From positions 253,711 through 317,710 of the forward strand of contig NW_005201912.1 in assembly GCF_000372725.1 (NCBI RefSeq): 64,000 nt of DNA, in the 5' to 3' direction. The number at the start of each line of letters is the position of its first letter. Position 1 is the first letter of the stretch. The translations under genes were made by a program, and so were the position numbers. Positions 65 to 63,784 of this stretch are shown one piece after another. This stretch comes from Emiliania huxleyi CCMP1516. Taxonomy: Eukaryota. The notes beneath the pieces were generated by a model. That model saw nothing but the letters and a program-made list of their open reading frames with translations. It was not told the DNA's origin and made no database searches.

Positions 65-923
65 GTGGAGCAGCAGTTCAAGATGTGGGGCATCCAGCAC
101 CTCTCCGCCTTCTTCGTGCGCGCGGGCTACCGGCAGCTGGTCGACCTGATCCACCTGTCCAAGCAGGACATCATGGCCCTCGGCGTCACAAAGGACGCCG
201 AGGTGCGGCGCGCGGTGCAGCTCGTCGAGCGGCTCAAGCAGGAGCACCGCAAGGAGTCTCTCGAGATGGAGCAGCTGTGAACAGCGTCTCTTCACACCTG
301 CAGCTGTGAACAGGAGCACCGCAAGGAGTCTCTCGAGATGGAGCAGCTGTGAACAGCGTCTCTTCACACCTGCAGCTGTGAACAGGAGCACCGCAAGGAG
401 TCTCTCGAGATGGACGCGCTCTTCGTCGACCCCGACTCTGTCGACGTCAAGACGTGGCTCGAGAAGCGGTCGCTCGGCGAGTTTGCGAAGCTGGTGGCTG
501 TGAACGGCGTCTCTTCACACCTTTAGCTGTGAACAGGTCGCTCGGCGAGTTTGCAAAGCTGTATATCTCCCCATATCTCCCCACATCTCCCCATATCTCC
601 CCAGGTCGCTCGGCGAGTTTGCAAAGCTGTTCGAGCGGCACCGGGTCGACTTCGAGGTGCTCGGCGACCTCACCTACGAGGACCTCAAGGAGATGGGCCT
701 CAACGAGGTCGGGCCGCGCCGCCGCATCCACCGCCAGATCGTGCAGTGGCGCGACGACCGCGAGGCCAAGAAGGCGGACGCCATCCGGTCGCGGATGCAG
801 GTGCAAGAGAACAAGGCCTACCTCGAGAGCCAGCAGCAGAACGTCGACGACCGGCTGCAGCACCTCAAGGCGTCGCTCGGCGAGTCGGGGTACGTCACCG
901 GGTTGCGCCCGTCAAGCGGCTGA
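65..923 (+). CDS. SAM-domain protein, 3' exons (65-241, 386-468, 605-923); 5' part lies outside the window
   Basis: Splicing gives VKTWLEKRSLGEFAKLFERHRVDFEVLGDLTYEDLKEMGLNEVGPRRRIHRQI, a typical SAM domain. It is preceded by a second SAM-like unit (WGIQHLSAFFVRAGYRQLVDLIHLSKQDIMALGV). CAG acceptor at 62-64. Confidence 0.85.
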
Positions 924-1782
924 GGAGCGCGGGCGAGGGGGCGGCGCAGCGCCGCGCTGTGCGTGCGAAGCACAGCGGGGGCCAGCCGTGGGGAGGCGGT
1001 GCCACCGCAGAGGAGGAGAGGGGCAGCCCCTGCCGCTTGCGTGTGGGTGGGCGCTGGGCGAGAGGGGCCCACTACGCACGGCGGGCGAGGTGAGAGTACC
1101 TAGCGGAAGCTGACTGACGAGGCGTAATCACGTGTCGACTGTCGTGTGTGTTCGTCTCTCTTTTTGGGGTGTGTGTGTGTGTTTCGGCGTGTCTGCGCCC
1201 GGCTGTGTGTGAATAGAGTCGCATCGTGGCTCGCCACACGGCTCTTAGCCTCTACGCGAGAAACAACACCATGTACTCTACACCCCGAGCCCAACCCCCG
1301 GCAGCCCCGCACCTCGCCGCGTCCGCACCGTCTCACAGACACCTTACGTTAGTCCCCTTACACACCGAGTCCACCACGCACCAGACTCCAGAGGAGTGTG
1401 TGCAGTGCAGTGCAGACGGGCCAGCCTGCCAAAAAGAATAAAGAAGCTGCTCGCCATTAGATTGCACGTGCGCGACTCAGCGAGCGACGGGGGGGGGAGG
1501 GAGCCGGTATCGACGAAAGGGACCGCTAGCAGGAGACGGTGCCCAGCCCTACAGGTAGTGAACGATCGTCTTACACACATCAACTGCACATGCACATGCG
1601 CGCACTTCCAGTAGCGGCGCAACACGACGCCGAGCAACCGACGTCGGCACATACAGCTATATCATACTGACTAACAGCTAACTACTCAAGTATTGATATT
1701 AAACACGGCCATGCTCATACACCATTTTGGACAGATCTTATGTGGCGAGCACAATCGTCGCGCTCTAACGTAGCAAGGGTGG

Positions 1783-9877: not shown

Positions 9878-11741
9878 TCACAAAAGTTGTTGCTGCTGAT
9901 TGGTCTGGTGCCCTTTTCGGAGGAGTGTCTGGTGCGCCTCGCTGGCGCCACCACCCGCGTCCGTCCTCGAGCCGTCGCTGTCGTCGTCTGCGCAGTCCTC
10001 TCGCTCGCTGTCCTTGGCGTCGCCGCTGTCGCCGGCCGTGCGCACGCCCCCCTTCGCCGCCGCCGCCGGCCGCACCTCTGGCCGGCGGCTTGCGCGGTAC
10101 CGGAGTCCGATCTGCGCGCCCAGCGCCAGGAAGACGATGCCGATACCGAGCAGCTCCATCGGCACGACCTACCAGGACGGTTCCGAGAAGGTTCCGAGAA
10201 GGTTCAAGAAGCCGATGCCGAGCAGCAGCTCCGTCGGCGCGACCTCGTGGCCGAACTGGACAAAGGAGTTGAAGATGGAGAGCAGCTGGCGCACCTGAGA
10301 ACCAGCCGCCATGGCATCAGTCTGCGGCCTGCCGCCTCTTTGACCCGCCGGAGGGCTGGCCCGCCGTCTGGATGGTTGCGAAGACCAGCGGGCCGTACGT
10401 CTTGATGGTGTGAAAGATGAAGAGCTGACCTGCGGCGGGCCATCGAGGATGAATGGAGAATCGCCACCAGGGGTCTCGACGGTGCGGGGAGGGGAGGCCG
10501 ACGGCTCTCGGCGATCTCGGCGACTCTCGGCTACTCTCGGCGACTCTCGGCGAGTCTCGGCTGGTTGGTGGCCGATGGCGGAGCAGACGGCCATGAGGAA
10601 AATGTGCGGCAGTATGGCGGGGTTCTCGCTGACGAAGCGAGACACGTCCGCGAGCTCCCAAGTGAGGCAGAGGCCGAGGGCGGTGAAGGCGGTCGAGAAG
10701 AGGTTCGTGTACACCATCATCGTGATGGAGCCGACCGAGTACTGCTTGAAGACACGCGACTGGTAGTTTGAGGTGAAGGAGTCGCACACCATGTACGCCG
10801 AGATGAAGCAGACGCCCAGCAGCTCCGTGTCGCGCACGGGTGCCTCGTTGACCTCGTACGTCTTGAAGAGAAAGACGCCTACCCCAATCCCCACCACCCA
10901 TGAATCCTCATGACGACAGTCATGGCCTCGCAAGGCCGGAGGAGAGAGCGCGCCGCTGGTCAGCAGGACGGCGATGGCGTACTCGGCGGCGGGGTAAGTC
11001 TTGCGGGAGACGAAGTAGCCCATCACCATGACCGGCACCATCTTGCACGACTTGGCGAGCACCTACCTTCCGACAGCCTCCCCTCACCTCGGCGCCTCTC
11101 GGCGCCACCTTCCACCGACGAGGTGGCGGGCTGAGGAGAGGAGCAGCCCCCCCTCTGCTGGCGAGAGCAGTGGCCCCAGGTCTAGAGGCGAGCGCCTGCG
11201 TCGGGAAGGAGATGTAGCGCAGCGCCTCGTACTGCGAGACGGACGACAGGATGTTGGAGACCGACGAAAAGGAGAACTGGTACAGCGGCGCGGTGTGGGA
11301 GACGCAGGCGCCCTGCGCGCGCTGGGCCTCGCGGGCGGCGTAGGCGACTAGCAGCGCGAGCGCGCGGTTCGCAAACACGAGGAACTTGGACGAGCGGAAC
11401 AACTCCCCCGTCGCGTACGGCTGCGTCATGATCCGCTCCTGCATGTAGCCCCATAGCACGTAGCTCACGACGATGCCGACGGCGCAAAAGGCGACGTGGA
11501 GCGCCGCCATCACGAAGCTGTCGCCGCTCGGCCGCCCCTTGGCCGACGGCCGCTCGCTCCTCTTCTCCTCCACCGACTTGGCGGGAGGCTCCACGATGAG
11601 TCGGGCGAGCGCCGTCAACACGCCCGGATCGCCGGCCCTGCCCGGCTGCGAGAGGAGCCACTTGGCGAACCCCACAAAGGCGTAGAAGGAGCCGAAGGAG
11701 AGGATGTACGACGCAGTCTCGAGCGGGGCGGAGGCTGGCAT
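9878..11741 (-). CDS. UAA-family (SLC35B, PAPS transporter-like) nucleotide-sugar transporter; introns 11063-11195, 10879-10953, 10430-10572, 10295-10364, 10169-10243
   Basis: WGYMQERIMT, QYEALRYISFPTQ|VLAKSCKMVPVMVMG, DSFTSNYQ and G|QLFIFHTIKTYGPLVFATIQT|VRQLLSI motifs. Confidence 0.9.
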
Positions 11742-17000: not shown

Positions 17001-17255
17001 TCTGACAGCCTGACAGCAAACCCCGGACAGCGCCTGACAGTGCCCGACAGCCTGACAGCGCTGACAGCACTTTCTCCGACAGTCTGACAGCACGTCTCTG
17101 ACAGCCTGACAGCAGAGCCTGACATCAGAGGCGTCCCGTCGCTGTCAGGCCCTAACGTGACAGCCTGACAGCTGCCCGACAGCCCGACAGCACACAGCGG
17201 CCTGACAGCAGCGCTGACAGCCCGACAGCCCGACCAGCCCGACAGCAGCACAGAC
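17001..17255. repeat. Array of C(T/C)GACAG heptamers, left
   Basis: More than 20 copies with variable short spacers. Confidence 0.9.
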
Positions 17256-19450: not shown

Positions 19451-19745
19451 CAGAGCCTGACAGCACCCCGACAGCACCACCTGACAGCACCTGACAGCAA
19501 CAGCCCAACGTCTGACAGCAGCAGCAGCCTGACAGCTCTGACAGCTCCGACAGCGTCTGACAGCAACACCCGACAGCTCCGACAGCACCCGACAGCTACA
19601 GATCCCCTGATGTCAGACACGCACCCGACAGCACCCGACAGCACTGACAGCACCCGACAGCTGGTCTGACAGAGGCACCTGACAGTGCCTGACAGCTGCC
19701 CGACAGCCCGACAGATCACCTGACAGCACCTGACAGCCTGACAGC
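19451..19745. repeat. Array of C(T/C)GACAG heptamers, right
   Basis: Same motif and orientation as 17001-17255. Confidence 0.9.
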
Positions 19746-20641: not shown

Positions 20642-20688
<47 letters not shown>

Positions 20689-21034: not shown

Positions 21035-21087
<53 letters not shown>

Positions 21088-21229
21088 ACCTGTGTGCCAC
21101 GGAGAGGGCGGCGGAGGTGAGGGCGGCGGCAGCGGTGGCGACGGCGGTGGCGACAGCGGTGGCGAGGGTGGCGGGGAGGGTGGCGGGGAGGGTGGCGGGG
21201 CGAGAGGCGACAGCGGTGGCGCACCCTCG

Positions 21230-21270
<41 letters not shown>

Positions 21271-21631: not shown

Positions 21632-21669
<38 letters not shown>

Positions 21670-26919: not shown

Positions 26920-29290
26920 TCAGTCCGAATCATCGTCGTCGTCGAGCACGACTACCTCGCCCGTCGCAGCGGGCGCCGCAGCCTCGCCGCCCTCAAAGTC
27001 GCTGTCCGCATCGGGCGGCGGCGGGCGGCGGGCTGGCTTGCTGCGAGCCCGCTTGCTCGACGCGCCGGCGGGAGGGCGCGATCGCTTCGTGGTGGGGCTC
27101 GAGGCGCCTCCGCCTGCCCGCGCGAGGCGCGGCAGCTGCGCGGCCGTCGCCGCGTCGAGCTCGAGCGCGGCGGGGAGGGCGGAGAGCGGAGCGGGCTCGG
27201 CGCCGCGGCGCAGCTGCGCGGCGAGGGTGGGCGCGAGCACGAGGTAGGCGTTGATCGAGTAGGCCGAGTACGCAAAGTGGAGGCCGAGCGAGCCGTCGAG
27301 CACGAGCCGCACGACGAGCTTCTCGAGCAGCCAGCGCCGCCACTCCGCGTTCGGCGCCTCACGGAGCTCCTCGAACCGCAGCTTGGCCGCCTCGCCGACC
27401 AGCTTGAGGGCCGTCAGCTTGGCCGGCGCCGCGCCGCCCTCGCCCTCGACGCTGGCGGCACGGTCGTTGAGCTCGCTCACCAGTCGAAGCACCGCGCGCG
27501 CCGCGCCGCCGACGGGCACCGACACGTAGGCCGCTGCTGCAGCCGCGAGACCGACCTCGGCACCGGTGGCGGTGGCGGTGGCGGTGGCGGTGGCGGGATC
27601 GGCGGCGGGATCGGCGGCGGGATCGGCGGCGGGAGAAGCCGCGGCGAGGGCACACACGTCGCAGCACGCGGCGCCGGTCGCGCGGTTCGTCGGGTGCAGC
27701 GGCTGGCCGAAGAGCGACGCGAGGCGCTCCCTGCGGCAGCAGCTCACGTCCTCGCAGTAGAGGCCCGCCGCCGTGAGCTGCGCCTAGCTGGGTTCGGGTA
27801 CTGGGTGGGTATGGGATCCTCGCCTTGTTGAGGGGCCCGCCGCCGTGAGCTGCGCCATGGCGGCGCGGCGGTCCCTCGCCTCTGCCGCCATCGAGGAGAG
27901 GCGGTACAAATCCGCGGGCCGCCACCACGCAATGACGTCCGACGGGCGCCCGTCGCGGCCGGCGCGGCCCGCCTCCTGGTAGTACGCCTCGAGCGACTTC
28001 GAGACGGTGTGGTGCAGCACGAAGCGGACGTCCGGCTTGTCAATCCCGAGCCCGAAGGCCACGGTCGCGACGACCACCTGCAGCGCCCCCTCCTCCCACG
28101 CCCGCTGCACCGCCTGCCGCGCCGCCGCCTCGAGCCCCGCGTGGTACGCCGCCGCCCGCACGCCTCTCTCGCTCAGCCCGCCTACAAGCGGCCTCGGAGA
28201 GGTCTCGGAAAGGTCTCGGAAAGGTCTCGGCACGCCTCTCTCGCTCAGCCCGCCCGCCACCCTCTCGGCGTCGGCGCGCGAGAGCGCGTACACGATGCCG
28301 GGTCGGCCGGCGTGGCGCGCGGTGGCGACGGCGGCCATCTCGTCGAGCTGCTCCGCGGGCGAGCGCTTCTGCCGCACCTCCAGCCGCATATTGGGTCGGT
28401 CGAAGTGGCCGCGGAAGTGGACTGCGCTCGCCGCGAGGCCGAGCGTGGCGGAGACGTCGGACACGACGGCGGCAGACGCGGTGGCGGTCAGCGCGAGGAT
28501 GGGGACGTTTGGGAAGGAGGCGCGGAGCGTGGAGAGGGAGAGGTAGTCGGGTCGGAAGTCGTGCCCCGCCGCGCAGCAGTGCGCCTCGTCGACGACGACG
28601 CGCTGCAGCCTGCCCGCGGCGTAGCACGTCTGCAGCTTTGCGAGCAGCAGCTTGGACTTTGCCACCCTCTCGGGCGTGACGTAGAGGAAGCGCAGCCCCG
28701 AGCCGGCGGCGTCGGCCAGCGCTGCGAGGATGGCGCTGGCCTGAGCCCGCTCGACGGCTCCCTCGGCGAGGAGCTCCGCCCGCAGCGAGAGGCGGCGGAG
28801 CGAGCGCACCTGGTCCTGCATCAGCGAGACGAGAGGCGACACGACGAGGGTGACGCCGGACGGCTCGAGCAGTGGAGGCAGCTGAAAGGTGAGCGACTTG
28901 CCTCCGCCCGTCGGCAGGATGGCAAACACGTCGCGGCCAGCAAGGCACGCGTTCACGACCTCCCTCTGCAGAGGCCGGAAGGAAGTGTGTCCGAAGCGAG
29001 ACTTTAGCAGGCGGGCAACATCGCCGTCCCACGGATGGGCGCCGGCCCAAGAGCCCTCGCCGCTGCCCGAGGCCGACGATGAGGCGGCGGATGAGGTCGA
29101 TGGGGCAGCGGCGGGCGGTGCCGTGGCGGGCGGTGCGGCGGAGGCTGCTGTTGCGAGTGTTGCTTCCCGCTCGGCAAGCTCTTGCGCGAGCGTGGCCTCC
29201 TCGCTGCGCAGCAGCGCCTGCTCTCTGCGATTCGCGGCGAGGCGACGGCGTAGCTCGTCCACGTCGGCCTGGAGCGCGTTCGACGTCGCA
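26920..29290 (-). CDS. RecQ-family DNA helicase (RECQ1-like); introns 28182-28253 and 27784-27855 (GC-AG, 72 nt each); start codon unclear
   Basis: LPTGGGKSL, YVTPER, DEAHC..GHDFRPDY, ALTATA, VATVAFGLGIDKPDVRFV, YYQEAGRAGRDG and Zn-binding YCE..CCRR...CCDVC. Confidence 0.93.
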
Positions 29291-36130: not shown

Positions 36131-39100
36131 CTAACCGGCGGAGAAGAGGCTGCTGGCGGAGTTGACGTGTTGCTGCTGGTACGACGCGGGCATGAAGATG
36201 TCGAACTTGCCGCTCGCGCGGCGGCCGTGCTTCGCGGAGACGGCGGCGTCCTCCGGGTCGCCGAGGATGAAGCCCTGCTCCTCGAAGCAGCGCGCCGCCT
36301 CGGCGAAGGCGTCGTGGATCGAGGCGGGCGGCCCGCCCGCCAGCTCGATCTCGGCCATCTCGCCGAGCTTGCCGTAGAAGCCGCGGCAAAAGGCGATGGC
36401 GGCCTTGTCCTCGAGCAGCGAGTCCCAGCCGATGACGTACAGGTGCGGCATCTCGCGGTGGATCAGCTCGCCGAGCGGGCGCAGCGTGTGGCAGCCGTGC
36501 AGCAGCACCGCCTGCAGGTCGGGGCAGTCCTCCCGCAGCAGCCGGATGAGCTCGTCGGGAGGGACCGGCTGCAGCGTGCCCCCGCGCTCAAAGGCGAGCG
36601 CGCCGGCGTAGGCGCCGGCGCGGACCGCGTTGCCGTGGCCGGAGAACTGGATCACGCGCGGCGACAGCTCGCGCGCCACGTGCGCCACGTCGTCGGGGAA
36701 GGTGGCGGCGGGCCGGATCTCGCGCTGCATGTGCGGGATCGCCTCGCAGCACTCCTGGTAATAATAATAATAATAATATAATAATAATAATAAGAAGAAG
36801 AAGAAGAAGAAGAAGCACTCCTGGATCTCGTTCATCAGCTGCAGCTGCGTGATGGTGCGGCCGGAGCGGGTGCGGCGCGGCGACGAGAAGAGGGCGAGCA
36901 GCATCACGTGCTTGGACTTCTCCGTGTCGAGCGCGCCGCGGAAGATCTTCTTCTTCATCAGCTCCTTGACCGGCTCGCGCGTGGGCGGCGCGCGGCCGAG
37001 CATGTGCTCGGTGATGAGCTTGCCCATACTCGCGTCGGGCCACTCAGTGCGCGTCAAGCGCGACGCCACCACCTCGTAGAAGCGGTCGGCCGACCAGCGC
37101 TCGTCCTGCGCGTCGGTCGAGACGGGCCCGTCCGCGCCGTCGCCCGCGCCGTCGCTCCAGTCGCCGAGGAGCTGCCGCCCGTTGCAGAGCTCGTACAGCA
37201 CCAGCCCGAGCGACCACACGTCCGCCGACGCGCGCACGACCAGCCGGCCGGCGGCGGCGGAGACAGAGCCCGACGCGCGGCCGGGGACGGAGCGCCGCGC
37301 CGAAAAGCCGGAGGCGCACGCGGAGGAGCCCGCGCTGCAGCCGCCGTTCGCGCTGGAGTCGCGGCCGGAGCCGCAGCTAGACGCCAAGGGCGAATGGTCG
37401 TCCGACGTGGCGGCATCGGCGAGGTTCTCGTCGAGCGGCGACGCCGACGGGTCCGATTTGACGAGGCTCTGCAGCTGCAGCCGGCCCGAGCCGACCGAGC
37501 TGGCGGCGGGGAGGGAGACGGCGGGCAGGTTCTCGGCGGCGAGGAGCCGCGAAAAGCTCCTCGTCCTCGTCACCACCAGCTGCTCCCTCGCCACCAGCTG
37601 CTCCTCGTCCTCGTCCTCGTGGCGGTCGCCGCTGCTCGCGTTGGCCGCCGCCGCCAGCGCCGCCGCCCTCCTCACCGACAGAATCTCTGGCGGCGCGTAC
37701 TGCGGCGTGCAGGCGTACCGGTCGGCGTGGCGCGCCTCCCCCTCCTCGAGCACGGCCTAACGGGACGCGTCGTGGACGTGTCAGGGACATGCCGCCCGAG
37801 AGGCGGGGGGGACCCTGCCGGCGGGCGGCGGTTGCGTCGTAGTCGATCAGCTTCCAGTCGCCGCCGAAGCGCAGAAAGTGCGCCGGCTTGAGGTCGTTGT
37901 GCACGAGCCCCTTGTCGTGCAGCTTGTCGGCGCACTGCAGCAGCCGCAGCGCCACCGCGCGAGTCGCGATCGTTGAGAGGCCCGACGCGATCCCGCGGTA
38001 TGGGCTCGCCGCCGCCCTCGCGCGCGAGAAGGTGGCGAGGTCCGAATACTGGTGGTCCGCAAACTCGATCACGAGGATGGTGCGGTCGCCCTCGACGAAG
38101 GCGTCGTACAGCACTGGCGCCGTCTCCCCGCCGAGCAACCGCAGCACGGACGCCTCCCGCTTTGCGGCGGCGCGGCGGGAGGCGCCGTCGTACACCTTGA
38201 GGCAAACCTCGCGGTGCGAGATCGAGTCCTGCGCGTAGAAGACCGCCGCCTGCACCTGTTGAGTGCAGGACGGGAGAGCTGTGCGCCGGCGGCCGTTTCC
38301 TCGCGCACGAGCACGAGGCAGCCGCCAGCACCTGCCCCGAGACCGTGTACCGCCCCGCCTGCAGCGTGGCCGGCATCGACCCGCCAGAGGTGCGGAAGCG
38401 GCCGCTCAGCGTCAGCCGCCCACTCATCGACGGCCCGAGACGGCCGCGGACGGCGTCGAGCATCTCGGCGAGCTCCTCCTCCCACGCGTCGTCGAGCGCC
38501 GCCGCCGCCTCGAGCGGCGTGATGCCCTTCGCGTCGTGCGCCGAGCGGCCGTCGATCATGAGGTGCCTAACCTCGGGTCGTCTCGGGTCATCTCGGGTGG
38601 TCTCGGCCAGCCTCGGCCGGCGACCGATCATGAGGTGCGTGTCGCGCAGCAGCAGCTCCGTCATCTTGCGGTGCGTCCCGCGCACCGCAAGATGCATCGC
38701 CGACTCTCCCGTGGTGCGGAGCCGCTGCTCGATGTGCGTGCGGCCCAAATTGCCACTCAGCAGCGGCGGGTTGCCGCCCGCACGGCGCAGCAGCGGAAGC
38801 GCGACAGCCTGAGCGCCGACAGCCGCTGCAGCGAGCAGCAAGTTGCAGCCGTCATTCGCGACATAGTCGAGCAGCACGCGCAAAAACTGCGCCGCCCTGC
38901 TGCCGCCGCCGGAGCCGCCGCCGCCATCGCCATCGGCGCCGGCGTCGCTCCGCAAGGAGGAGGCGCCCCCAAAGCCCGCCGCGTCGCTCGCCAAGGCAGC
39001 GTCGCCGTTCTGAGAACGCGGCGGCGGGTGCGCGCTCGCGGATCGGCTAGCGCCTATGCGGACAGTTCCGCGAAAGCTCCGGGGAGGCAACGTGCGGCGG

Positions 39101-42100
39101 CGGTGCGCTCGCGGGTCGGCTCGCGCCGTGCGTCGGTGGCTCGTCGAGGAGCGGGCAGAGGAGGGACAGGACGAGCTCGCGAGAGGACTCGACGTACCTG
39201 ACCCGTCCAATCAGCTCGCTGGCTGATCGAGTCGTGAGGACGAGAGGCCCGGGTGAGCGGCACCCTGCCACGCCGCGGAACTCGCCGTCGCCGTCGTCGG
39301 CCGAGGTGCGGAGCAGGATGAGGCAGACCTGCGCCGCCGCAGCCAACGGGTCCTCCTCGAGGGGAGAGCCGAGCAGCCACGCGCCTAGTGGAGTCACTAG
39401 TGGAGTCAGCCGTCGTCCGAAGAGTAGCCCCGTCGAGCGGGCTGTGTGATCTCGAGTGATCTCGGGTGTGATCTCGAGTGTGATCTCGAGTGCGATCTCG
39501 TGTGATCTCGAGTGTGATCTCGAGTGTGATCTCGAGTGTGATCTCGAGTGTGATCTCGAGTGTGATCTCGAGTGTGATCTCGAGTGTGATCTCGAGTGTG
39601 ATCTCGAGTGTGATCTCGAGTGATCTCGAGTGTGATCTCGAGTGTGATCTCGAGTGTGATCTCGAGTGTGATCTCGAGTGTGATGGTCTCGAGTGAGCAG
39701 CCACGCGCCGGCGTCGAAGGAGCCGGCCACGCCCACGCCGAGCGAGGAGGAGCTGCTCGCGCTCCTCTGCAGCGGCGGCGCCGACGCCAGCTCGGGCGCC
39801 ATCCTAGCCGATGCGTGCGCCTCGGCGCTGTTTCGCGCCCGCGTGGCATCGGCGTCCGCGCTGGAGGCAGCGCTCGTGCGAGGCACGCTCTCCTGCCTGC
39901 CCGAGAGAGTGGACTGGCGCCGGTAGGAGGGCGGCGCCTCGTCGTGCGGCGCGAGGTCGCCGCCAAAGAAGAGGATCGCCTTTAATAATATAATAATATA
40001 ATAATAATAATATAATAAATATTAACTATTAAAGAAGAGGATCGCCTCTTCGCTCGGCGGCGCGTCCGCCTCGCGCGAAGGGCGCCTGTTCACAGCGTCT
40101 GGCCGCGCTCTCCCCGCCTGTGCCTTTCCCCTCCCCTCCCGCCTTTTGCGGCGAACGCCTGTCGAGCGGCGGTGCCGCCCTCCGGCTGCTCCTCGCCGCC
40201 GCCCGCAGCATGTCGCCCCCAAACGAGAGCCGCGGCGACGACGGCCCCCGACTGCCGCCGCCCAACACCGGACCGCTGCTGCTGCTGCGCGTCGGTAGGC
40301 GGACGGGCGGCGCGTTGCCCAACCGCTCGTCGAGGGAGAGCTTGTCATCGAGGCTCGGCGAGCCGCACTGGTCGCCGCCCGCGCCGCCCTCCCCGACGCC
40401 GCCCTCTCCGACGCTGCCCTCCCCGACGCCGCCCTCTCCGACGCTGCCTGTACAGCGCCCAAGGGAGGAGCCACGGGAGGAGCGGCGGGGGACCGACTCG
40501 GTGCGGCTAGAAATGCTTCCCGAAGCGCCGCACGTGAACCGCCGCGGGAAGCGCATCGCGGGCAGCCCGTCGTCGCACTCCTCCGTCGCGGCGAGAACAA
40601 TCCGCGCGCAGACGAGGAGGCGGAGCAGCGCCTTGAACCGCGGCGCCTGCGACCCGCCCACGTGCCGCTGCGCTCGCGCCTGCTCGCGGCTCACCGTGAG
40701 GCGGAGGCACTCGTGCGCCCGCTGGATGGGCGACCAGCCAAAGGCGTCGGCCTCGACGATCTGCTGCCGAAAGGCAGCCAACCCGTGTGCCTCCCTCGCC
40801 CCTGCCCGCCGCCGGGCCGGGGAGAGGGCGTGGCTGCCTATCGGCGCGGGCTTGAGACACGAGACGACGGCGCTGAGCGAGGCGGCGAGGGCGGCCTTGT
40901 GCAGCGCGTTCTGCCCGAGGTACCGCTCGGGCGAGAGGAAGTGGGCGAGCTGGTGCAGCGAGGAGTCGCCGCAAAGCTCCGCAGGCGCCGCGGCCCTCCT
41001 TTGGGAAGAAGCGAGGGGCCCCTCCGCCACCGCCCTTCGCGGGCCCGGGTCGCTGCTGCCGCCGGGCGATGCAGGGACGGCCGGCGCGGCGGGCCCTTGC
41101 TTGGCCGAGGAGAGGACGCCATGGCGGCGCGGGTGGCTGATGGGCTCGGCGAGGGCGCCGGCGGCGGCGAGGGAGGGGATCTCCGCGTCGAGGAAGGCGG
41201 TGACCTCTTGCAGGTCGGGCATCGAGTCGACGGCGCCGGGCCTTGAGTTGGAGATGGAGCCGCCCGCGTAGGCCCACGTGAGGGCCTGGGCGGGCGAGAG
41301 GTGGCGGCAGCGCGCAGCGACGTACGAGGCGAAGAAGGCGTCCGCGGCGCCGAACGGGTCGACGACCTTCTCGCCGGGCTTGCGCGGCAGGAAGAGCTGG
41401 AGCCGCTCCTCGGTCGGCTCGGCGAAGGCGGGCGGGAGGTCGTCCTCCTCCTCCTCGCCCTCGTCCTCCCCGCGGGGCTGCAGCTGCAACTGCCGCAGCC
41501 GCACCCGCGTCGGCGACGAGGGGACGGACCCTCTGGTGAGGTGAGACAGCGCGAGCGCCCTCGAGGCCGGCGGCTCGCCCCCCCCCTCCCCCCCGCCCCC
41601 CCCCCCGCCCCCCCTCCCCTCCTCGCTGCCCCCACCTCCGCCCCCGCCATCCCCGAGCGCGGCCTCACCGCCCCGGCACGCCGCGCCGCAGCATGGCGCC
41701 GGGGGTGCGGTGGCGGTCCACACCCTCTCGCTCCCCTCCTCCTCGTCCACCGCCCGGAGCGTCGCGACGAGCGACGGGCGGCGCTCCGGCGGAGCGGAGC
41801 GGGCCAAAGGGGCGGACGGGGTGGGGTCGGTGGAGGCGGGGGGATCGGAGGCGGCGGCGGCGGCGGAAGCGGCGAGAGCGGGAAGAGCGGGAGCCGGAGA
41901 GTCGTCCCGCCGCAGGCTGTCGGAGGCGGCGACGGCGGCGACGGCAGAAACGGGGACGGCAGAAACGGCGGCGTCAGCGGCGGCGTCAGCGGCGGCGTCA
42001 GCGGCGGCGGCGGCGGCAGCAGATGATGCGGCGGCGGAGGCGGCGGCGGGTGGGGAGGTTCTCGACCGGCTCCTTCGCCCCGCCTCGCGTCGCAAGCGGC

Positions 42101-44445
42101 CGGCGATGCTGCCGGCGGTCGCCTAGTGGGGCGGACCCTCAGCCCGACTCAATTCATCGACTAGGCGCCCGGCGGGTGGCGCTGGCCGGCGCAGGCCTGG
42201 GCGGTAGGCGAGATATGGGGAGATGTGGGGAGATATGGGGAGATATGGGGAGATATCTATAGCAGGCCTGGGCGGTAGGCGAGAGGCGCTGCTGCGCGAG
42301 GACGCACCCGATGCGCGTGTTGACGAGGACAGTGGAGAGGTTGGGCCAGCGCAGCAGGAGCGAGTCGGCGGCGAGGCCCGCCTGAGAAGGGGTGGGAGAG
42401 CGCCGCACACAGAAGAGGCTGAAGAGGCGGAGGCCGGCGAGGCGCTGCCTCGTCGAGGGTGGCGAGGAGGGGCGAACCTCGGGTCATCTCGGGTCATCTC
42501 GGGTCATCTCGGGTCATCTCGGGTCATCTCGGGTCATCTCGGGTCATCTCGGGTCATCTCGGGTCATCTCGCCTCGTCGAGGGTGGCGAGGCCGCTCGAG
42601 CCCCACGAGAGCAGCCGCGGCGCCTCGCTCTCGCCCACGAAGAGGACGTCGACATGCCCCACCAGCTCACGCACCTCGGAGAGCCGCGAGTCGTTGAGCG
42701 GCGACGCGCGCAGGCAGACGTGCACTCCGGCGGCATGCGCCTCGTCCGCCGCAACAACCATCGGCTCGAGAGGCAGCTCCAGCTGCAGCAGCAGCGCGCT
42801 GTGGGCGGCCTCCTTGCCGGCCAGCCGCGCCCAGCGCTGCGACGCGGTCGGGCGGTACAAGCGGCGCAGCTCGGCCATCTCGCGCTCTCCGACGAGGTTG
42901 TTCGCGCCATCGCACGCGACCGACACCTTCAGTCGAGGACCCGAGCTGACCCGAGCTGACCCGAGATTGTCCGAGATCGCACGTCGCCGACACCTTCTCG
43001 CGCCCGCCCTCGCGCCCCTCGGCGCCGTAGATTTGGACGGCGACGCCGGTGACGGCGGTGGGGTCGCGGGTGACGCCGCGCGTCGACAGGAGGGAGGGGG
43101 CCAGAGTGACCTGGGTGGAACGCTCGAGCGCCCCGAGCAGCGCCGTGCCTAGCTCATGATCGGAGTGGGAATAGGAGCAGGAACCATGGCAAATTAGTGG
43201 CCTACGCAGCAGCGCGGTGCCCAAGTCGTCGCTGCCGACGCGCCCGACGAGGGACGTTGTGACTCCTGTTCAAAGTGTCTGGCGTGTGCGGCCTGCTTTT
43301 CTTCGGTTGAGGCCCGATGTGGGAGGTTGCGATGCCGAGGCGGGCGAGCGCGACGGCCTGGTTGGCGCCCTTGCCTCCGGGCACCTACGCAGTTATACGC
43401 ACTGATGGATAATACTTGCACAGGCCTGGTCCGCGCCCTTGCCTGCCGGCACCGAGTCGAAGACGCCGATGGTGTTGTTCGACTCGAAGAGGCCGACCTC
43501 TGTCTCTGCGCGCAGGTCCATGTTGATCGAGCCAAAGACAATGCAGCGGCCGAAAGTCTTCTGACTGCCGGATGGGTCCAGCCGCAAGCCGCACTTCCTC
43601 CGCACCTGCAAAGCGCGATGCCGAGTCCGGGACATGTCCTGGACAGGTCCCGCCGCGAGCCTCGCCCCGCACCCGGAAGCCCCGGTAGACGCGCTGCAGG
43701 CGGCATGCGGCGGCGTGCGCGGCGTTGCGAGCGGTGGCGAGCTGCTCGCGCCTAGAGCGGGCGAGGGGTCCGAGAAGGCTCCCAGAAGGCTCCACGGCAG
43801 GTGCACGTGCGGTGGCAGCTGCTCGCGCCCGTCGCGCAGGTCGCGGCCGAGCGCCTGCGGGAGATGTCCATGCGCGTGTGAGGCGGGACGCGTCCGAGGA
43901 CGTGTCCGAAGCACGTGTCCGCCCGCCTGGAGGACATCCCCTCCCTCCGTCGCCAGCGCCGCGTACAGCAGCGCGCGCACGAAGGCGAGCTCGTTGGTCG
44001 ACTGCTCGACCCGCGCGGCGTTCGCGTCCAGCACCGCCCGCAGCTTTGCCGCCGAGCCGGGAGCCTCGGCCAGCTTCGCCTCCAGCTCGGCCTGCTTGGA
44101 GCGCTCGGCGCCGGCCGCCTCGACCACCTTGACGAGTGCGGGCAGCGCGTGGGAGTGCTCGAGCGCCATGGCCCACGCGGCGAGGCGGGCCGCCTGCTCC
44201 TCGCGCGGCAGCTCGCTCAGCCCCGACGGCGCGAGATCGCTCGGCCCCGCGTCGGACCAGCTGGCTCTGCGCTCTGCGATGTTCGGCCGCGCCGCCGCCG
44301 CCGCGCCGAACTCAGAATGCGTCTGGCTGAGCCGGCGCACCCGCTGAGGGCTCGCCTGCACGACGGTGTCGAGCTCGACCAGCCGCTGCTGGATCGACTG
44401 CTCGGTCATCATGTCTGAGTCCTCAGAGCTGACAGAGACGTCCAT
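36131..44445 (-). CDS. Giant multidomain protein (~2,200 aa): IQ motif, ribokinase/PfkB domain, ankyrin repeats, protein kinase, C-terminal CHAT (caspase-like) domain; ~18 introns
   Basis: Frame stays open with introns 43855-43926, 43752-43828, 43606-43672, 43385-43452, 43266-43335, 43149-43220, 42927-42993, 42382-42572, 42123-42267, 40086-40158, 39980-40045, 39385-39708, ~39198-39263, 39054-39126, 38567-38638, 38256-38331, 37757-37829, 36755-36820. Motifs: LQRVYRGFRVR; GSINMD, PGGKGANQAVALARLGVTTSLVGRVGSDDLG, VVDPFGAADAF; GQNALHKAA, GESAMHLAV, GITPLEAA; HNDLKP, KLIDYD, TPQYAPPE, DVWSLG; IQFSGHG, VLLHGC. Confidence 0.8.
39445..39695. repeat. Intronic 12-bp tandem repeat (GTGTGATCTCGA)n
   Basis: About 20 units inside intron 39385-39708. 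Confidence 0.95.
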
Positions 44446-44536
44446 AGTCGCGCAGGCGTGGGGCCGCCTGCCGGCGCGCCGCCAGCAGACCGGCAGCAGA
44501 TCGGGACGCGAAATCGGGGCGCGGAGAGTCGCGCTG

Positions 44537-57499: not shown

Positions 57500-60349
57500 A
57501 TGATTGCCGCGGCGCCTGAAGGGCGCGGCCGTCATCGTACCGTCGCCACGCTTGCACTCTTTGCGAGCCTCGCCGTCGCGTGCTGGGTCTATGCTCCGCA
57601 GGTCGGGCTGCGTCAGGAGCAGGAGATGTCTTGCCGCGTCGGCTGTAGCCAGAAGGCTCCAAAGACCGAAGCGAGCGAGCTGGCCGAGGCAGTCTCGGAC
57701 ACGGCGAAGGCCATGGCGGGCTACAAAAAGGGCGCTGCAAAGCTCGGTGCAGCGGCGACGCATTCGTTGCAGAAGGACCAGCAGCAGCTGGCAGAGGAGA
57801 TGGCGGACGGAGCGCGAAAGAGCGGCAAGGCCTTTGAGCAGACCTTCAACCTCAACCCGCCGCCGGAGGGCTACGAGGTGGTGACAACCTGCGCGGACGT
57901 GGACGAGGAGGGCCACTGCTGGAAGACGACTGACGAGCTGCAGAAGCCGGTGCGGTTCGAGGACGCTGAGCCGACAGACCTGAACATCAAACTGGGGGAC
58001 AGCTGCACCCAGGAGCTGCTCGACACCTTCTTCGCCAACCAGGTCTCCAAGGTGGTCACCTACGCGATGGCCAACGCCGCGGAGAGCGAGAACGTGCGCT
58101 CGGCAATGCCCGTCGCCTCACTCAGAGGTGCGCGGTGCTGTGGAGAGAGAGAGAGAGAGGGAGAGAGGGAAGAGAGAGACAGCAGCCAGGCCACGACTGG
58201 ACACGCCGGACTGTGACGAGGCCCCGCGGCGGGGAGGACGGCCACACTGGCGCAACGGAGAGACACCGAGGCTCCCTTCTGTGTGACCGCGAGACCAACG
58301 AATTCTCAACCCGCCTCCTCACCCACTCCTCCTCACCCACTCCTCCTCACCCACTCCTCCTCACCCACTCCTCCTCACCCACTCCTCCTCACCAGGCACG
58401 CGCTTCCGCATGACGATGGCGACCACGCGGCAGATCTTCAGCTCGTGGAACCTGACTCTCGTCTCGATCGAGCCGTTCGTGGTCAAGTTCGGAACCTGCT
58501 ATGACAACCTCGAGTGGTGGCAGGCGCAGAACGGAGACAGCGAGGCCCGCCTTCTCGGACCGGCCTCTAGACCCGTCTCTCCCTGACCGTCACAGGCGCA
58601 GGACTGGTACACCAAGGGCTCTCACATGCGCATGCCCGACGGCCTCGAGGTGCAGATCACCGGCATGCGCGCCAAGGTGGCCAGGGAGAATGAGAGAGAG
58701 TCATTGCTGATGGCCATTAGTGATGGCATGCGCGCAAAGGCGAGCGAACTATCAACTCGCAGTCCGCCAGTAGTGGTGCGGATCGAAGGTCGAGTCGTCA
58801 GCTAGCAAGGTGGTGCCGACCGTCCTCTTCGCCCCAGGTGGCGTTCGAGTGGGACCTGGTCCAGGACTATGGCTTGGGCGGCCTCTCTCTCGGCCAGGCG
58901 CCACACGCCGTCGGCAGGGCAATCCTCGGGCGATCTCGGGCGATCTCGGGCGATCTCGGGCGATCTCGCCTAGGCGCCACTCGCCGTCGGCAGGGCGGTC
59001 GTGGGCTTGAACGGTTTCGTCATCCTCGGCGTGGACTTGCACGACCCCGCAAGGGCGGCGATCGACAGCTGCAAGGGCAAGTTCGAGTTTGAGAGCATGG
59101 AGTTTGTGGGCGAGCGGAGAGAGCCCAACGAGCTCCTCTGCGGGGGAGCAATTGCATGGACTCGCCGCGGAGCTCTCCTCTTAGGCGAGCAGCTCAACGA
59201 CAAGTTCTTCGCAAAGCAGATCGAGGTCTTCTTCCCCGAGTTCGCCGCGCAGGTCGCCGACCTGATCTGCTACGGCAACACCAAGAAGCGGCCCACCTCC
59301 GTCGTCGACATCATGGGCGAGATCGAGCCGAGATCGAGCCGAGATCGAGCCGAGATTGGAGTGCTCCGAGTTTGAGCCGAGATGCGCCGTCGCAAGGTCG
59401 GATGCCCGAGCCCGTCCCTCTGAGTGCGTGGCTCGCTCTTAAGGCGGACTCAACGCGGACCTCAAGATCGACAACGAGGAGGGCATCACCTTTGGCTTTG
59501 TCGGCGCGCAGGAGGGGATCAACTACATGGTCTCCAAGGCGCCCAGCAGAGACACCCCGTTTAACCCCCCTCCCCCCCCCCCTTCCCCCCCCCCCTTCCA
59601 CCCCTCCACCCCCCCCTCCCGGCTGTGATGTGCCAGCGACGGTGTCGTGTAGGCGCTCAGCCCGGTCGACTTTTACATGCAGCAGGACGCGATCTGGCAC
59701 AACGACCCCACGACGCGCTGGAAGAAGGCCAAGGAGGACCAGGCGAGAGTGGTCCCCGAGATGCCACCCTGCCCCTCCCTCCCCCGTAAAACCCCCCCCC
59801 TACCTACCCTTCCGCCTCTTCCCCCCCCTTTCCCCTTTCCCCCCTTCCCCCCTTCCCGCTTTCCCCCCTTCCCCCCTTCCCCCGCTCTCCCGGGAACCCC
59901 CTCCACCCGACCCCCCTGCCCCTGCCCCCGCGCGCCAGGCACTCCTCGCCGAGGTCGGAGTCCACAAGACACTCGGCGAAGGGCGCTTCAGCCACATCAC
60001 CCTCCCGCCGTCCGCGCCGCCCTCGCCGCCGCCCTCGCCGCCCGCCCCGCCGGCGAGGGTGCTGCCGTCGTGGCTGCCGCAGAAGCTGCCACTCGACGGG
60101 CTGCAGCTGCCCAGCTTCGGACTCGTGGCCGCCTCGCCCTCTCCGGCGCCCTCGGAAGAGCCCGCCCCCTATTCCTTTTCGGGCTACTCGTACGGCGACA
60201 AGACCGCCTCCGAGCGCGGCATCGGCGACGTCGGCGGCATGGCAGCGGGTGCCACTGGCCAGATGGCGCAACCCCGGCAGGCCACCCGCGCGGCGTGGAT
60301 GTCGCTGTTCCGGCCCCCTGCGAAGGAGGCGGCGGCGGCGGAGCGAGGA

Positions 60350-60529: not shown

Positions 60530-60975
60530 CGAGGTGCAAGCACGATGAGGCATCGTGAGAGCGTGTGAGCGTGTGCGGGCGGTGTATTGGGTTGCGTGTG
60601 TGCGGACGGTTGTGTCTCTGACTCTCTGTCGTGTGTGGTGCAACGTGTGAAACGTGCAACTGCTTGATGTGTGGGCGGTCTCCCTCTCGTGCATGCTCTC
60701 GTGCAAGCGCTGTGATCGGGCGTGGGCGTGGGGGTTGGCGCTGTCCCCTGAGCCCTGTCCCTCGTGTGTGTGGCTGCGCCGTGCGCGCGCGCCGCCATCC
60801 CCGCAGCCCCGCCGACTCTCTCTCCGCCGGCGGGCTGCATCTCTATTTTTTTTCGCTATTTGTGTCCGTGGTGGTGGTCCGACCCCTTCGCGCATGCAGC
60901 CTTAACTAAATCATCCGCGCAAACTACGCTCCAGAGCCACAAGGACGCACGCGCCGCGCGGCTGGGGACACTCGC

Positions 60976-63784
60976 TCAGGAGGCGAGGAAGGCGGCCGAC
61001 GCTGCCGGGAAGGCGCGGAACGCGCTTTGCACCGTGGCGAGGAAAGCGGAGAGGAGGGCGGCGGCGACGAGGAAGACGGCGCCGGGCAGCTTTGCGGGCG
61101 GCTCGATGGAGGCGGCGAAGAGGCGGCCGTACCCGCTAAAGGCGAGGGTGTCGCACAAGTCTTGCAGCGTCTCGAGCGCGCCGAGCAGCGCTCCGCGCTC
61201 TGCCGGCGGCGCCTGCAACGCGCGCGCGCGCGGGGGGGGGGGGGGGGTGAGGCGGGCCAAACACACGGGGGCCGGAGCGTCGGAGGCAGCGGAAGGGGCG
61301 AGGGGGCGGCTGGGAAGGGGGCAATACGACCGCCGTCTGGCGGGCGGGTGGGGGGTGCGGAGTGGAAGTGGAAGTGGCGCCTGCGCGGCGACGAAAGAGA
61401 CGAGGGCGGGGAGGGCGATGCAGCCGAGGGTCATGAAGAGGACGCAGCTGACGAGGGCGGCGGGCGTGCGGGCGAAGGCGATGGCAAGCAGCCCAACCGC
61501 GTAGACGGCGCCGCCCGTCTGCATCGACGTGCGGAGGCCGAGCCGCGGGATGAGAGCGGCGGGCGCGACGCCAATCATGAGCCCGATGAGGACGAGGATC
61601 GGCGCGGAGTCCTGCGGCCCCCACTTGAAGAGGTGGTTGGCGTAGTTTCCGAACTGCGAGTTGATGCACATATTGCCCAGCCAGAGCAGCGCAAACGCGG
61701 CCGCCGAGCGGCGCAGCAGCGGCGTGCTGCAAAAGAGGCGCCGCAGCGCGCCTACAAAGGGGGGGGAGGCTCCGGCTAGCCTCGGGCTGACCGGGTCCGT
61801 GACCAGCGGCCGAGGAGCCGCTGACGCGCGCCGATCGGGTTGGCTGCGCGTAGATCGAGTCGCGTCTTGGTGCGGGCCTGGAGACACGGCTCCCGCGCCT
61901 CAGGGGAAGGCGCCGGGCGGGCGGAGAGGCGGAGAGGCGCATCCGGTGTGCCGGCGCGGGCAGGCTCTCTGGCACCAGCAGCGCGATGACGACGAAGTTG
62001 AGAACGCCTGTTCGCACCTCCGCCGGTGTGAAGAGACGCGCACCGCGCCGCAAGTCGAGGGCGGCGAGGGCGACGAGGCCGGCGGCGGCGGCGGCGTAGA
62101 GCGGCGCGCGCAGGCCGTACTTTGCGTCGAGGATCGCAGAGAGCGGGAAGCCGAGGATGAAGGCGCCTGCAGGACGGGAGGGCACGAGATGCGGGGAGAT
62201 ACGGGGAGATGCGGGGAGATATGGGGAGATATGCCTGCAGCCCGGGGCTCTTGGAAGGCTGCGAGGAGGGTAGGGTTCCGAGGAGGCTAGGGGCGGCGAG
62301 GGGCGGCGGCGAGAGAGGGGCGAGGGGAGAGGTGTGGCGAGGGGAGGCGGCGAGGGAGGCGGCGAGGGAGGCGGCGAGGGAGGCGGCGAAAGGCGGTGTG
62401 GCGGCGGAGGAGGTGGGGCGGGGAGGGAGGCGCCCGCGACAGAGACGCCCTGGAAGATGCCGAGGTTGATGGCGCGCCGCTCGGGTGGGGAGACGTCGGC
62501 GACGTAGGCCTGGCAGACGGGGGCTCACAGTACAGGAGGGCGGGGTGGAGAGGACGGGAGGGAATGGGTGCACGGGCCTGGCAGACGGGGGCTCACAGTA
62601 CAGGAGGGCGGGGTGGAGAGGACGGGAGGGAATGGGTGCACGGGCCTGGCAGACGGGGGCTCACAGTACAGGAGGGCGGGGTGGAGAGGACGGGAGGGAA
62701 TGGGTGCACGGGCCTGGCAGACGGGGCTCATGCAGCTTGTTACTCCATCGACGAGGTCGGCGAGGTAGAAGACGGCGACGCCGCGCGAGGCGGTGGCCTG
62801 CAGCGGAGGGTGGCAGGCGGTGAGGCAGGCGGTGAGGCAGGCGGTGAGGCAGGCGGTGAGGCAGGCGGTGAGGCAGGCGGTGAGGCAGGCGGTGAGGCAG
62901 GCGGTGAGGCAGGCGGTGAGGCAGGCGGTGAGGCAGGCGGTGAGGCAGGCGGTGAGGCGGGCGAGGCAACACGGCGGTGTGGAGGCGTCTCGGCAGCGGC
63001 GCCTGCAGCAGGCAGGTGGTCGCAGAGCCGAGTGCCGACCAGGCCATCAGATACGGGGAGATATGGGGAGATATGGGGAGATATGCCTGCAGCAGGCAGG
63101 TGGTGGCAAAGCCGAGTGCCGACCAGGCCATCAGCGGCTTGCGGCCGACCACGTCGGAGAGGGCGCCGTGGAAGCCGACGAAGAGGAAGGTGATTAGCTT
63201 GTCGAGCGACTGCTCACGGGGCGGGCCGTCAAGGTCCGACCGTCGGAGGGGTGTGACGAGAGCCGCGCCCGCGCTGCCTCGACGTCGCCGCTCAGCACGG
63301 CGGAGGCGGGAGAGACGTCGGGCGAGCCGTCCTCGTTGACCAGCGTCGCAATGACGCGCCCGAGCACCGGGATGCTCAGCCCGAGCGCGAAGAAGGAGAG
63401 CCAGTTCGCCAGCACCGCCCACCAGAAGGACCCGCGCTGTACCGGAAGCGGCGGCGGCAGCGGCGGCGGCGGCGGCGCCGGTGTCACCGCCGATATCTGC
63501 GCGCCCGCCCGAGCGCCCCGCCGGCGCAGCCGATCGAGCACGCCCGCTCCGCCGCCTTCCGAGCGCGCGGCCTTCGACGCGGCCACCTTGGAGGCAGCCA
63601 GCAGCTCAGTGGAGACGGCCGCCGGCGCCGGCCGCACAACCAGCTCCTCCGGCTCGCAATCGCGCTCAGAGCGGCACGACGGTTCGGCGCCGAGACGCGG
63701 CTTGGCCGAAGGGCCGGGCGCGCGAGCGTGCGCCGAGGCCGCGAGGAGGAGCATCGACGCCACGAGCGAAGGCGAGACCCGCAT
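60976..63784 (-). CDS. MFS transporter (TetA/MFSD14-like); introns 63210-63277, 62798-63086, 62510-62713, 62167-62433, 62008-62079, 61878-61951, 61752-61831, 61213-61380
   Basis: Motif A GALSDVVGRKPLM; IDGVTSCMSPVCQ|AYVADVSPPERRAINLGIFQG; LVPESL; ERGALLGA. Confidence 0.88.

What the first reader, a model, noticed from the sequence alone, without database searches (positions are those of the whole stretch)
242..63277. Window-wide intron design: ~70-nt modules made of a duplicated exon end plus simple-repeat filler
Seen: in at least six unrelated genes an intron begins with a ~10-35 nt copy of the start of the next exon (28182-28253, 27784-27855, 38567-38638, 43149-43220, 43385-43452, 39980-40045, 10169-10243, 58898-58973) or ends with a copy of the previous exon's end (42197-42267, 62510-62577, 63003-63086). 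The rest is a short repeat such as (ATATCTCCCC)n, (CCGAGACCTTT)n, (GAGATGACCC)n or (TTA)n. Most lengths are 66-77 nt, with 72 seen repeatedly. The copies range from perfect to well diverged, like an age series. Known: Introner transposons can take a splice site from a short target duplication, but they have TIRs and a shared body; these do not. Inference: an ongoing intron-creating process, e.g. staggered-break repair with repeat fill-in, in which the duplication supplies one splice site and length is tightly constrained. I cannot say whether this has been described before.
Basis: partly seen in the sequence, partly recalled or inferred. Interest (0 to 1): 0.9.

Follow-up and report, generated by a model that had tools for sequence, protein, structure and literature searches.

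The report
Repeat-patch insertions that build algal introns
Introns in this marine alga's DNA consist of a copy of about 25 bases of the neighbouring exon plus a short repeat patch, and the same scar surrounds such repeats in other ocean DNA, so a likely still-active insertion process probably both creates and remodels the introns of these algae.

Summary
Confirmed. All 11 cited units exist, with exon-copy scores of 10-60 against at most 5 in swapped controls. RNA contigs lack 4 of them plus 6 neighbouring units, and all 10 carry an exon copy. One unit (39980-40045) is absent from the DNA of two other samples, so gain (or precise loss) is recent. In marine metagenomes, 132 of 175 (ATATCTCCCC)n arrays sit inside a 12-48-nt target duplication (0 of 179 controls), with microhomology at both junctions, in either orientation. 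Telomere-repeat arrays do so too (25 of 95 vs 1). Corrections: fillers form shared families; insert length is broad (42-178 nt), so the ~70-nt peak is likely a splicing filter; several units are added to the ends of older introns. Best reading: nick-primed insertion templated in trans, likely by a reverse transcriptase, rescued by permissive GC donors; the enzyme is unidentified. Related to Daphnia break-repair introns, Introners and interstitial telomeres; not a tested member of any. Nine paper searches found no description. This scan noted single look-alikes and one haptophyte family on other DNA.

The parts
242..385 (+). Two tandem 72-nt units: 29-nt copy of next exon plus hairpin filler (TCTTCACAC family); GA start after CAG; SAM-domain gene
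   Evidence: Pfam SAM; splicing not tested
469..536 (+). 68-nt unit, 25-nt exon copy plus hairpin filler
537..604 (+). 68-nt unit directly abutting 469-536, 26-nt perfect exon copy plus (ATATCTCCCC)n filler
10169..10243 (-). 75-nt unit in UAA-transporter gene, diverged 5' copy, 11-mer filler
27784..27855 (-). 72-nt RecQ intron, perfect 22-23-nt 5' copy, degenerate filler; in-frame stop if retained
28182..28253 (-). 72-nt RecQ intron, perfect 24-25-nt 5' copy, 11-mer filler; reads through as 24 extra codons if retained
38567..38638 (-). 72-nt unit, 14-nt perfect 5' copy, 10-mer filler
   Evidence: splicing not tested
39054..39126 (-). 73-nt unit with diverged 5' copy
   Evidence: splicing not tested
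39980..40045 (-). 66-nt unit, perfect 15-17-nt copy, AT-rich filler; absent from DNA contigs of runs X1 and X3
40086..40158 (-). 73-nt older intron, weak exon copy, ends in the GTGAACAG family motif; present in DNA of X1 and X3, absent from RNA
42123..42267 (-). Compound 145-nt intron: young 71-nt unit (42197-42267, decamer filler, copy of the exon end) placed at the donor of an older 74-nt unit (42123-42196)
42382..42572 (-). Compound 191-nt intron: 124-nt unit (42449-42572, 10-mer array plus 19-nt exon-end copy) at the donor of an older 67-nt unit
42927..42993 (-). 67-nt intron, diverged 5' copy; skipped exactly by both RNA runs
43149..43220 (-). 72-nt intron, diverged 5' copy; in DNA of X1 and X3, absent from RNA
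43266..43335 (-). 70-nt intron, diverged 5' copy
43385..43452 (-). 68-nt intron, ~30-nt diverged 5' copy; in DNA of X1 and X3, absent from RNA
43752..43828 (-). 77-nt unit with 12-13-nt 5' copy
   Evidence: splicing not tested
58898..58973 (+). 76-nt unit, 23-nt 5' copy, 10-mer filler joined in register with the copy's last bases
   Evidence: splicing not tested
62167..62234 (-). 68-nt decamer unit abutting the acceptor of a longer candidate intron (about 62235-62433); boundaries set by eye
62510..62713 (-). Three tandem copies of a 68-nt unit ending in a copy of the previous exon end
   Evidence: splicing not tested
63003..63086 (-). 84-nt unit, decamer filler plus ~45-50-nt exon-end copy, at the donor of an older ~205-nt candidate intron (62798-63002)
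   Evidence: splicing not tested

Best explanation
These units are insertions made of a 12-48-nt duplicate of the target plus a short patch from a few shared repeat families, likely formed when two staggered nicks open the gene and a polymerase, probably a reverse transcriptase of the telomerase or retroelement kind, copies the patch in trans from a short repeat template. Steps: (1) nicks about 25 nt apart on opposite strands (inferred from the variable long duplication); (2) a free 3' end pairs over 1-6 nt with the template and is extended, with slippage giving 2-10 units (microhomology shown; enzyme inferred); (3) the new end joins the other side over another microhomology and fill-in duplicates the target (inferred); (4) selection: an insert in an exon survives if the duplicate starts with GC/GT/GA, an AG forms at the patch end (often patch ...YA plus the duplicated G) and the total is at least about 66 nt, or if it is a stop-free multiple of three; inserts in or across an existing intron end survive easily and stack up as compound introns (pattern shown, selection inferred). 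The direct repeat also allows exact loss, so introns would turn over.
For: Duplication is the rule: 132 of 175 decamer arrays and 90 of 107 testable loci, against 0 of 179 swapped-flank controls. Its length varies (12-48 nt, median 25) with no target motif beyond the microhomology. Microhomology of 3 nt or more at 26 of 64 left and 22 of 54 right junctions versus 5.7% expected; the right end is phased (18 of 54 stop after ATATCTC). Both orientations relative to the gene occur (42 vs 28 of 70 called; 63 of 133 not called), so the template is not the local transcript. Patches inside perfect duplications already deviate 6.6% from the consensus at stereotyped positions (39 units), so they arrive heterogeneous. 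The telomere repeat is one of the patches (25 of 95 arrays vs 1 of 95), and the hairpin family has a fixed 3' end at the acceptor and a variable 5' end. The decamer is also in a contig whose nearest named proteins are from Phaeocystis. Filter: of 13 exon-embedded inserts with a splice fit, 11 are 67-109 nt and the two shorter (42, 54) are stop-free multiples of three. Recent: the unit with a perfect copy is absent from two DNA samples, while diverged-copy units in 42927-43452 are present in both.
Against: No enzyme or template RNA was found: no RT YxDD motif in any frame of 60 aa or more in the 122 loci or the window (one non-RT match), and no genome was available. Microhomology at both ends and heterogeneous patches fit DNA-templated end joining equally well. 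AT-rich and degenerate patches (39980, 27784, 43149) do not look like products of one template. Only 26% of telomere-repeat arrays have a duplication, and that count includes overlapping loci and some copies that contain repeat. Presence/absence rests on one unit, with no outgroup, and exact loss between the repeats gives the same picture. The metagenome set was seeded on a 27-nt perfect array and mixes species. Filler motifs are in genes (30 of 31 hits, motifs chosen after seeing them), which a random-nick model does not predict.
Confidence: 0.5

Rival explanations
1. DNA-level repair: a staggered break with 3' overhangs is filled in (tandem duplication) and Pol theta-type end joining copies a patch from existing intronic arrays elsewhere; abundant families feed their own spread. 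No reverse transcriptase is needed.
For: Two-sided microhomology, heterogeneous patches in perfect duplications, nested and back-to-back arrays, a filler-free 30-nt exonic duplication absent from all 4 runs. 3'-overhang breaks give small tandem duplications in mammalian cells (PMC8355091, abstract).
Against: Break-repair insertions usually lack a duplication: 4.6% of rodent and 16% of primate interstitial telomeres have one (PMC2246262 Table 1), and class 2 templated insertions have none (PMC5110952), against 75% here. Patches were not seen to carry unique donor flanks, and one end is phased.
Confidence: 0.3
2. Plain tandem duplication of ~70 nt across a proto-splice site or an existing splice site, followed by in-place replacement of part of one copy by microsatellite growth or gene conversion; the patch is secondary.
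For: Whole-unit tandem copies exist (242-385, 62510-62713); 469-536 and 537-604 have equal length but different patches; the exon-end copy at 42200 differs by 7 nt between alleles.
Against: The 39980 unit is present or absent as a whole. Patches show no remnant of exon sequence, belong to the same families at unrelated loci, and are flanked by perfect duplicates in 52 of 132 cases.
Confidence: 0.13
3. A conventional DNA-transposon Introner family.
For: One splice site comes from the duplication, as in Introners (PMC9860276 passages); the hairpin family has a shared body.
Against: Duplication is 12-48 nt and variable, not a fixed 3-9 nt; no terminal inverted repeats; body length varies by whole repeat units.
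Confidence: 0.04
4. Assembly artefact or chance similarity in GC-rich DNA.
For: The window's own reads were not available; contigs break at the arrays.
Against: 0 of 110 and 0 of 179 controls; independent DNA runs carry several units and RNA runs lack them; diverged copies cannot be produced by assembly; 90 independent loci show the same build.
Confidence: 0.03

Closest known systems
Daphnia pulex neointrons from staggered double-strand-break repair (PMC4202315; abstract and sections 19, 33 read)
   Same: Insertion flanked by direct repeats; recent, polymorphic gains; later events added beside or inside the first one.
   Different: Repeats there are 4-17 nt, patches are AT-rich with no source and 90 cases were found; here duplications are 12-48 nt, patches belong to shared families, and 10 of 10 RNA-implied units of one gene region carry the mark.
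Introners / Introner-like elements (PMC9860276 and PMC12130899 passages; bioRxiv 2020.10.14.339549 parts 1-2 of 4)
   Same: Many introns from one process; splice site recruited from the target duplication; thrive where GC/GA donors are tolerated.
   Different: Fixed 3-9-nt duplication and often terminal inverted repeats there; long variable duplication and simple-repeat bodies here. PMC9860276 filtered out low-complexity families, so this class would have been dropped.
Short interstitial telomeric sequences inserted by telomerase (PMC2246262 passages)
   Same: Tandem G-rich repeat inserted at a break with 1-8 nt in register; TTAGGG is one of the patches in the related loci.
   Different: Duplication is rare there (4.6-16%); non-telomeric repeat families dominate here; the inserts become spliced introns.
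Class 1 templated sequence insertions / target-primed reverse transcription in trans (PMC5110952 passages)
   Same: Variable target duplication around a short patch copied from elsewhere.
   Different: No poly(A) tail, no TTTT/A site preference; no RT gene found beside the patches.
Intron gain by tandem duplication of an AG|GT-containing exon segment (Rogers model; recalled, PMC4974935 seen only as a search listing) and fungal stwintrons (PMC8469720 abstract)
   Same: Exon sequence supplies splice sites; introns stacked at a splice site of another intron.
   Different: Foreign patch between the copies; stwintrons lack flanking duplications.

Membership tests
Spliceosomal intron | Removed from mRNA while present in DNA | tested here: met
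   units in 42123-43452 are in DNA contigs (X1, X3) and missing from RNA contigs (X11, X13); different samples, by length arithmetic.
Spliceosomal intron | GY/GA donor, AG acceptor, frame restored | tested here: met
   11 of 11 ends; RecQ restored to 744 aa, ungapped against 10 homologues.
DNA-transposon Introner | Short fixed-length target duplication (3-9 nt) | tested here: not met
   12-48 nt, median 25, in 132 units.
DNA-transposon Introner | Terminal inverted repeats | tested here: not met
   Decamer patches are direct arrays; the hairpin family folds internally and not end to end.
Introner (broad sense) | Family of introns with a shared body in unrelated genes | tested here: met
   Hairpin family in 9 loci and the window, decamer in 122 loci; bodies are short or low-complexity.
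Staggered-break neointron (Daphnia type) | Direct repeat at the two ends and an empty allele in relatives | tested here: met
   39980-40045 absent in X1 and X3 DNA; one case, polarity unrooted.
Telomerase-inserted interstitial repeat | Patch is the telomere repeat | tested here: inconclusive
   True for arrays in 32 of 120 loci; not for the window's cited patches, apart from a degenerate look-alike at 27784 judged by eye.
Telomerase-inserted interstitial repeat | Bases in register with the repeat at the break | tested here: met
   For the decamer, mean 2.2-2.3 nt vs 0.70 expected; not measured for TTAGGG arrays.
Non-LTR (TPRT) insertion | Variable target duplication, preferred 3' end, variable 5' end | tested here: met
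   the end preference is partial (28 of 54 at two phases).
Non-LTR (TPRT) insertion | Partner element encoding RT/endonuclease with the same 3' tail | tested here: inconclusive
   None in 122 short loci or the window; whole genome unavailable.
Recursive (ratchet) splicing at AG|GC | Two-step removal of abutting units | not testable with these tools
   Contigs show only the end product (145 and 191 nt removed).

The most novel reading that the evidence does not exclude
Haptophytes run a telomerase-like intron factory: a reverse transcriptase with several small template RNAs (the telomere repeat, a decamer kept from Phaeocystis-like to coccolithophore-like genomes, and others) patches nicks in transcribed genes with a 25-nt target duplication, and this has produced or overwritten most introns of these bloom-forming algae, with stacked units removed by recursive AG|GC splicing.
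Probability: 0.3. Interest if true: 0.92.

Novelty: new variant of a known kind. Interest (0 to 1): 0.74.

Why it matters
Where new intron sequence comes from is an open question; large surveys found transposon Introners but discarded low-complexity families. Here the parts of each intron can be read off: target, patch family, junction bases and relative age. If general, it would explain the GC-donor majority reported for Emiliania huxleyi (exon sequence in a 65% GC genome becomes the donor), the repeat-rich introns and pervasive interstitial telomere tracts of coccolithophores, and it makes intron birth testable in culturable algae with many sequenced strains.

Tried and rejected
No whole genome is held, so nothing here is genome-wide. 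Viral contigs hold neither the decamer array nor the hairpin body (0 hits). All-against-all BLAST of the 122 loci and the window gave no orthologous pair that could show empty alleles, only overlapping loci and shared repeats. No RT motif next to arrays. The joints table was swamped by GC-rich repeat matches and was not used; only the piece table was. Run X17 (0.00 share) and the other 12 unlaid runs are no evidence. A protein search did not name the species (closest hit 98%, unnamed). A length ruler in the insertion step was rejected: copy and patch lengths are not anticorrelated in the pooled loci (rho -0.10, n=132) and only weakly within each group (-0.20, -0.30); the strong value for 15 window units (-0.92) comes from hand-picked, hand-measured stand-alone introns. 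Targeting of splice junctions was considered and is not needed: inserts that duplicate an existing splice site survive more easily. A nucleosome or helical-turn reading of 72 nt was not tested. Read et al. 2013 is not held. Searches of this scan's notes by sequence and by relatives gave nothing.
Full report
Organism. The window is GC-rich eukaryotic DNA. The nearest named relative of its RecQ exon is from the haptophyte Prymnesium parvum, 64% identical. Cultured and marine runs hold up to 0.77 of the sampled words of 39720-44500. Composition and GC donors fit Emiliania/Gephyrocapsa, for which 56-65% GC and up to 4% GA donors are reported (PMC4028052 passages), but no call named the species; that label is my inference. 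No whole genome is held.

The observation. All 11 cited units are at the stated places with GC/GT...AG ends. Their copy scores are 10-60, against at most 5 in 110 swapped pairs. A scan of repeat pairs 30-300 nt apart found further units. In 5'-copy units the copy starts at the donor and usually shares only the last exon G, so the acceptor is made of the patch's last two bases plus a duplicated G, and the donor is ordinary exon sequence.

Are they introns? Four runs were laid on 39720-44500 (4 of 17 listed). From the piece table (arithmetic), RNA contigs lack 139 nt (66+73; both runs), 336 nt (74+71+67+124; run X11), 67 nt and 210 nt (72+70+68; both runs). DNA contigs of X1 and X3 run through 42544-44500 in two overlapping pieces with one 1-nt gap, so 42927, 43149, 43266 and 43385 are in DNA and out of RNA, though in different samples; 42197 and 42449 are entered from both sides but not bridged. 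For RecQ, removing both 72-nt units gives 744 aa with no gap against 10 homologues at either junction; keeping 27784 gives a stop, keeping 28182 only adds 24 codons.

How general within a gene? The 10 units required by the RNA gaps were not picked for duplication (the split of two compound gaps is mine). All 10 resemble the flanking exon at one end at p of 0.03 or less against G-anchored coding 22-mers, 8 of 10 at 0.017 or less (two tests each). So the mark is on every RNA-implied intron of this region, from perfect to barely visible.

Is it ongoing? DNA contigs of X1 and X3 join 39964 to 40031 with nothing between while keeping the neighbouring intron: the unit with a perfect copy is absent there. 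A 17-nt repeat is shorter than the 31-letter words of such contigs, so collapse is unlikely (my reasoning). This is one case without an outgroup; exact loss between the repeats would look the same, and the RNA gap at this unit proves nothing about splicing.

Beyond the window. Of 179 arrays with flanks, 137 lie in a direct repeat, against 0 of 179 swapped controls. After dropping two overlapping loci and repeat-only copies: 132 of 175 arrays, 90 of 107 loci; duplicate 12-48 nt (median 25, 52 perfect); insert 42-178 nt (median 73; 40 below 66, 38 in 66-77, 54 above). Splice-compatible placements: 72 of 133 with the C-rich strand as sense (27% expected), 49 with the G-rich strand (26% expected), none in 32. 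A codon model (85 of 85 correct on held-out window exons at the margin used) called 42 C-rich-sense and 28 G-rich-sense, leaving 63 uncalled. Among inserts whose removal leaves a good reading frame, 13 have a splice fit: 67, 67, 67, 70, 71, 72, 73, 75, 81, 91, 109, plus 42 and 54, both stop-free multiples of three; four rows have no fit, two of them second-strand calls of listed units. This suggests a broad insert spectrum cut by a minimum intron size near 66 nt.

Junctions and patches. Bases shared by copy and repeat average 2.3 (left, n=64) and 2.2 (right, n=54) against 0.70 for blunt joins; the right end favours two phases (18 and 10 of 54). No target motif appears. Patches within perfect duplicates deviate 6.6% from the consensus (39 units), no less than in imperfect ones (5.5%, 65 units; 104 of 129 passed the single-phase filter), at favoured positions. 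Other families recur across loci and the window. A ~40-nt hairpin body ending GTGAACAG has an exon copy in 8 of 14 cases, seven of them 67-73 nt long and one a mis-called internal repeat. Telomere-repeat arrays occur in 32 of 120 loci; 25 of 95 are in a duplicate versus 1 of 95 controls, a count inflated by overlapping loci and by copies that include repeat. One such locus is closest to Phaeocystis antarctica proteins; these loci use a variant decamer and longer inserts (median 87 vs 68). So the process and the decamer appear in at least two haptophyte lineages (inferred from one protein each).

Stacking. 42197 and 42449 sit at the donor of older units, and RNA removes 145 and 191 nt; 537, 62167 and 63003 look alike but are untested. 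These add no new intron position; they remodel an old one. Whether removal is stepwise is unknown.

Mechanism. Shown: duplication, trans-shared patches, microhomology, both orientations, one empty allele, splicing of several units. Inferred: staggered nicks, the polymerase, and selection as the source of the length peak. I favour a nick-primed RT (0.5) over DNA-templated end joining (0.3) because long duplications are the rule here but rare in known break-repair insertions (PMC2246262, PMC5110952 passages), one end is phased, and the telomere repeat is among the patches. Against it, no RT or template was found.

Literature. Nine searches found no paper describing this intron build in haptophytes; subscription papers are mostly not searched. 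Seen: PMC4202315 (abstract, two sections); bioRxiv 2020.10.14.339549 (parts 1-2 of 4); passages of PMC3488318, PMC12130899, PMC9860276, PMC2246262, PMC5110952, PMC4028052, PMC7486954, PMC11347168, PMC12480563, PMC13518057 and bioRxiv 2024.05.26.595999; abstracts of PMC8355091 and PMC8469720. PMC13518057 reports an intron-rich Calcidiscus genome with pervasive interstitial TTAGGG but no link to intron birth in the passages seen. PMC9860276 removed low-complexity families. I recall that Read et al. 2013 noted 10-11-bp tandem repeats in E. huxleyi introns; it is not held, and it or unseen supplements may mention the duplications. Earlier notes of this scan describe single similar introns in other marine protists and one haptophyte family; they are unchecked and gave leads only.

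Verdict. Real, general in the tested gene region and widespread in related ocean DNA; a new variant of repair- or retro-insertion intron gain, not a member of the transposon Introners. Interest 0.74.

Noticed in passing
window 242-385: Both 72-nt units start with GA after CAG, so they would need GA donors; L095 shows a similar AG|GA placement.
   Followed up: partly
window 40382-40441: In-frame 30-nt exonic tandem duplication without filler; all four laid runs show a 30-nt gap over this piece.
   Followed up: partly
window 42200-42206: Seven bases of the exon-end copy in unit 42197-42267 are missing in DNA of X1 and X3, so copy length differs between alleles (deletion or conversion from the exon).
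   Followed up: no
L014:1026, L023:340, L027:1302, L065, L069, L085, L088, L121 and others: Dispersed element starting CCTAGA(A/T)GCGG, apparently at intron 5' ends, in about 20 loci; hit several times by decamer arrays with a 12-14-nt duplication at the same spot. Possibly a longer Introner-like family.
   Followed up: partly
L019, L040, L043, L048, L067 and 27 more loci: Phaeocystis-like contigs with many intron-sized tracts of degenerate telomere repeat, some back to back in opposite orientation.
   Followed up: partly
window 17002-17250 and 19456-19745: Intergenic degenerate CTGACAGC arrays with no flanking duplication seen; a different repeat class.
   Followed up: no
window 34765-35792: Dispersed repeat about 80% identical to parts of L011 and L069.
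   Followed up: no
window 39385-39700: Long candidate intron filled with a 12-mer array of about 250 nt between short copies of exon sequence; shows that units can grow far beyond 72 nt.
   Followed up: no
window 52084-53421: Intronless 445-aa ORF with lower GC at third positions by eye and a perfect 51-nt in-frame tandem duplication (52904-53004); possibly a recent acquisition.
   Followed up: no
window 20550-22248: 183-nt coding tandem repeat (about 9 copies) in a low-complexity ORF.
   Followed up: no
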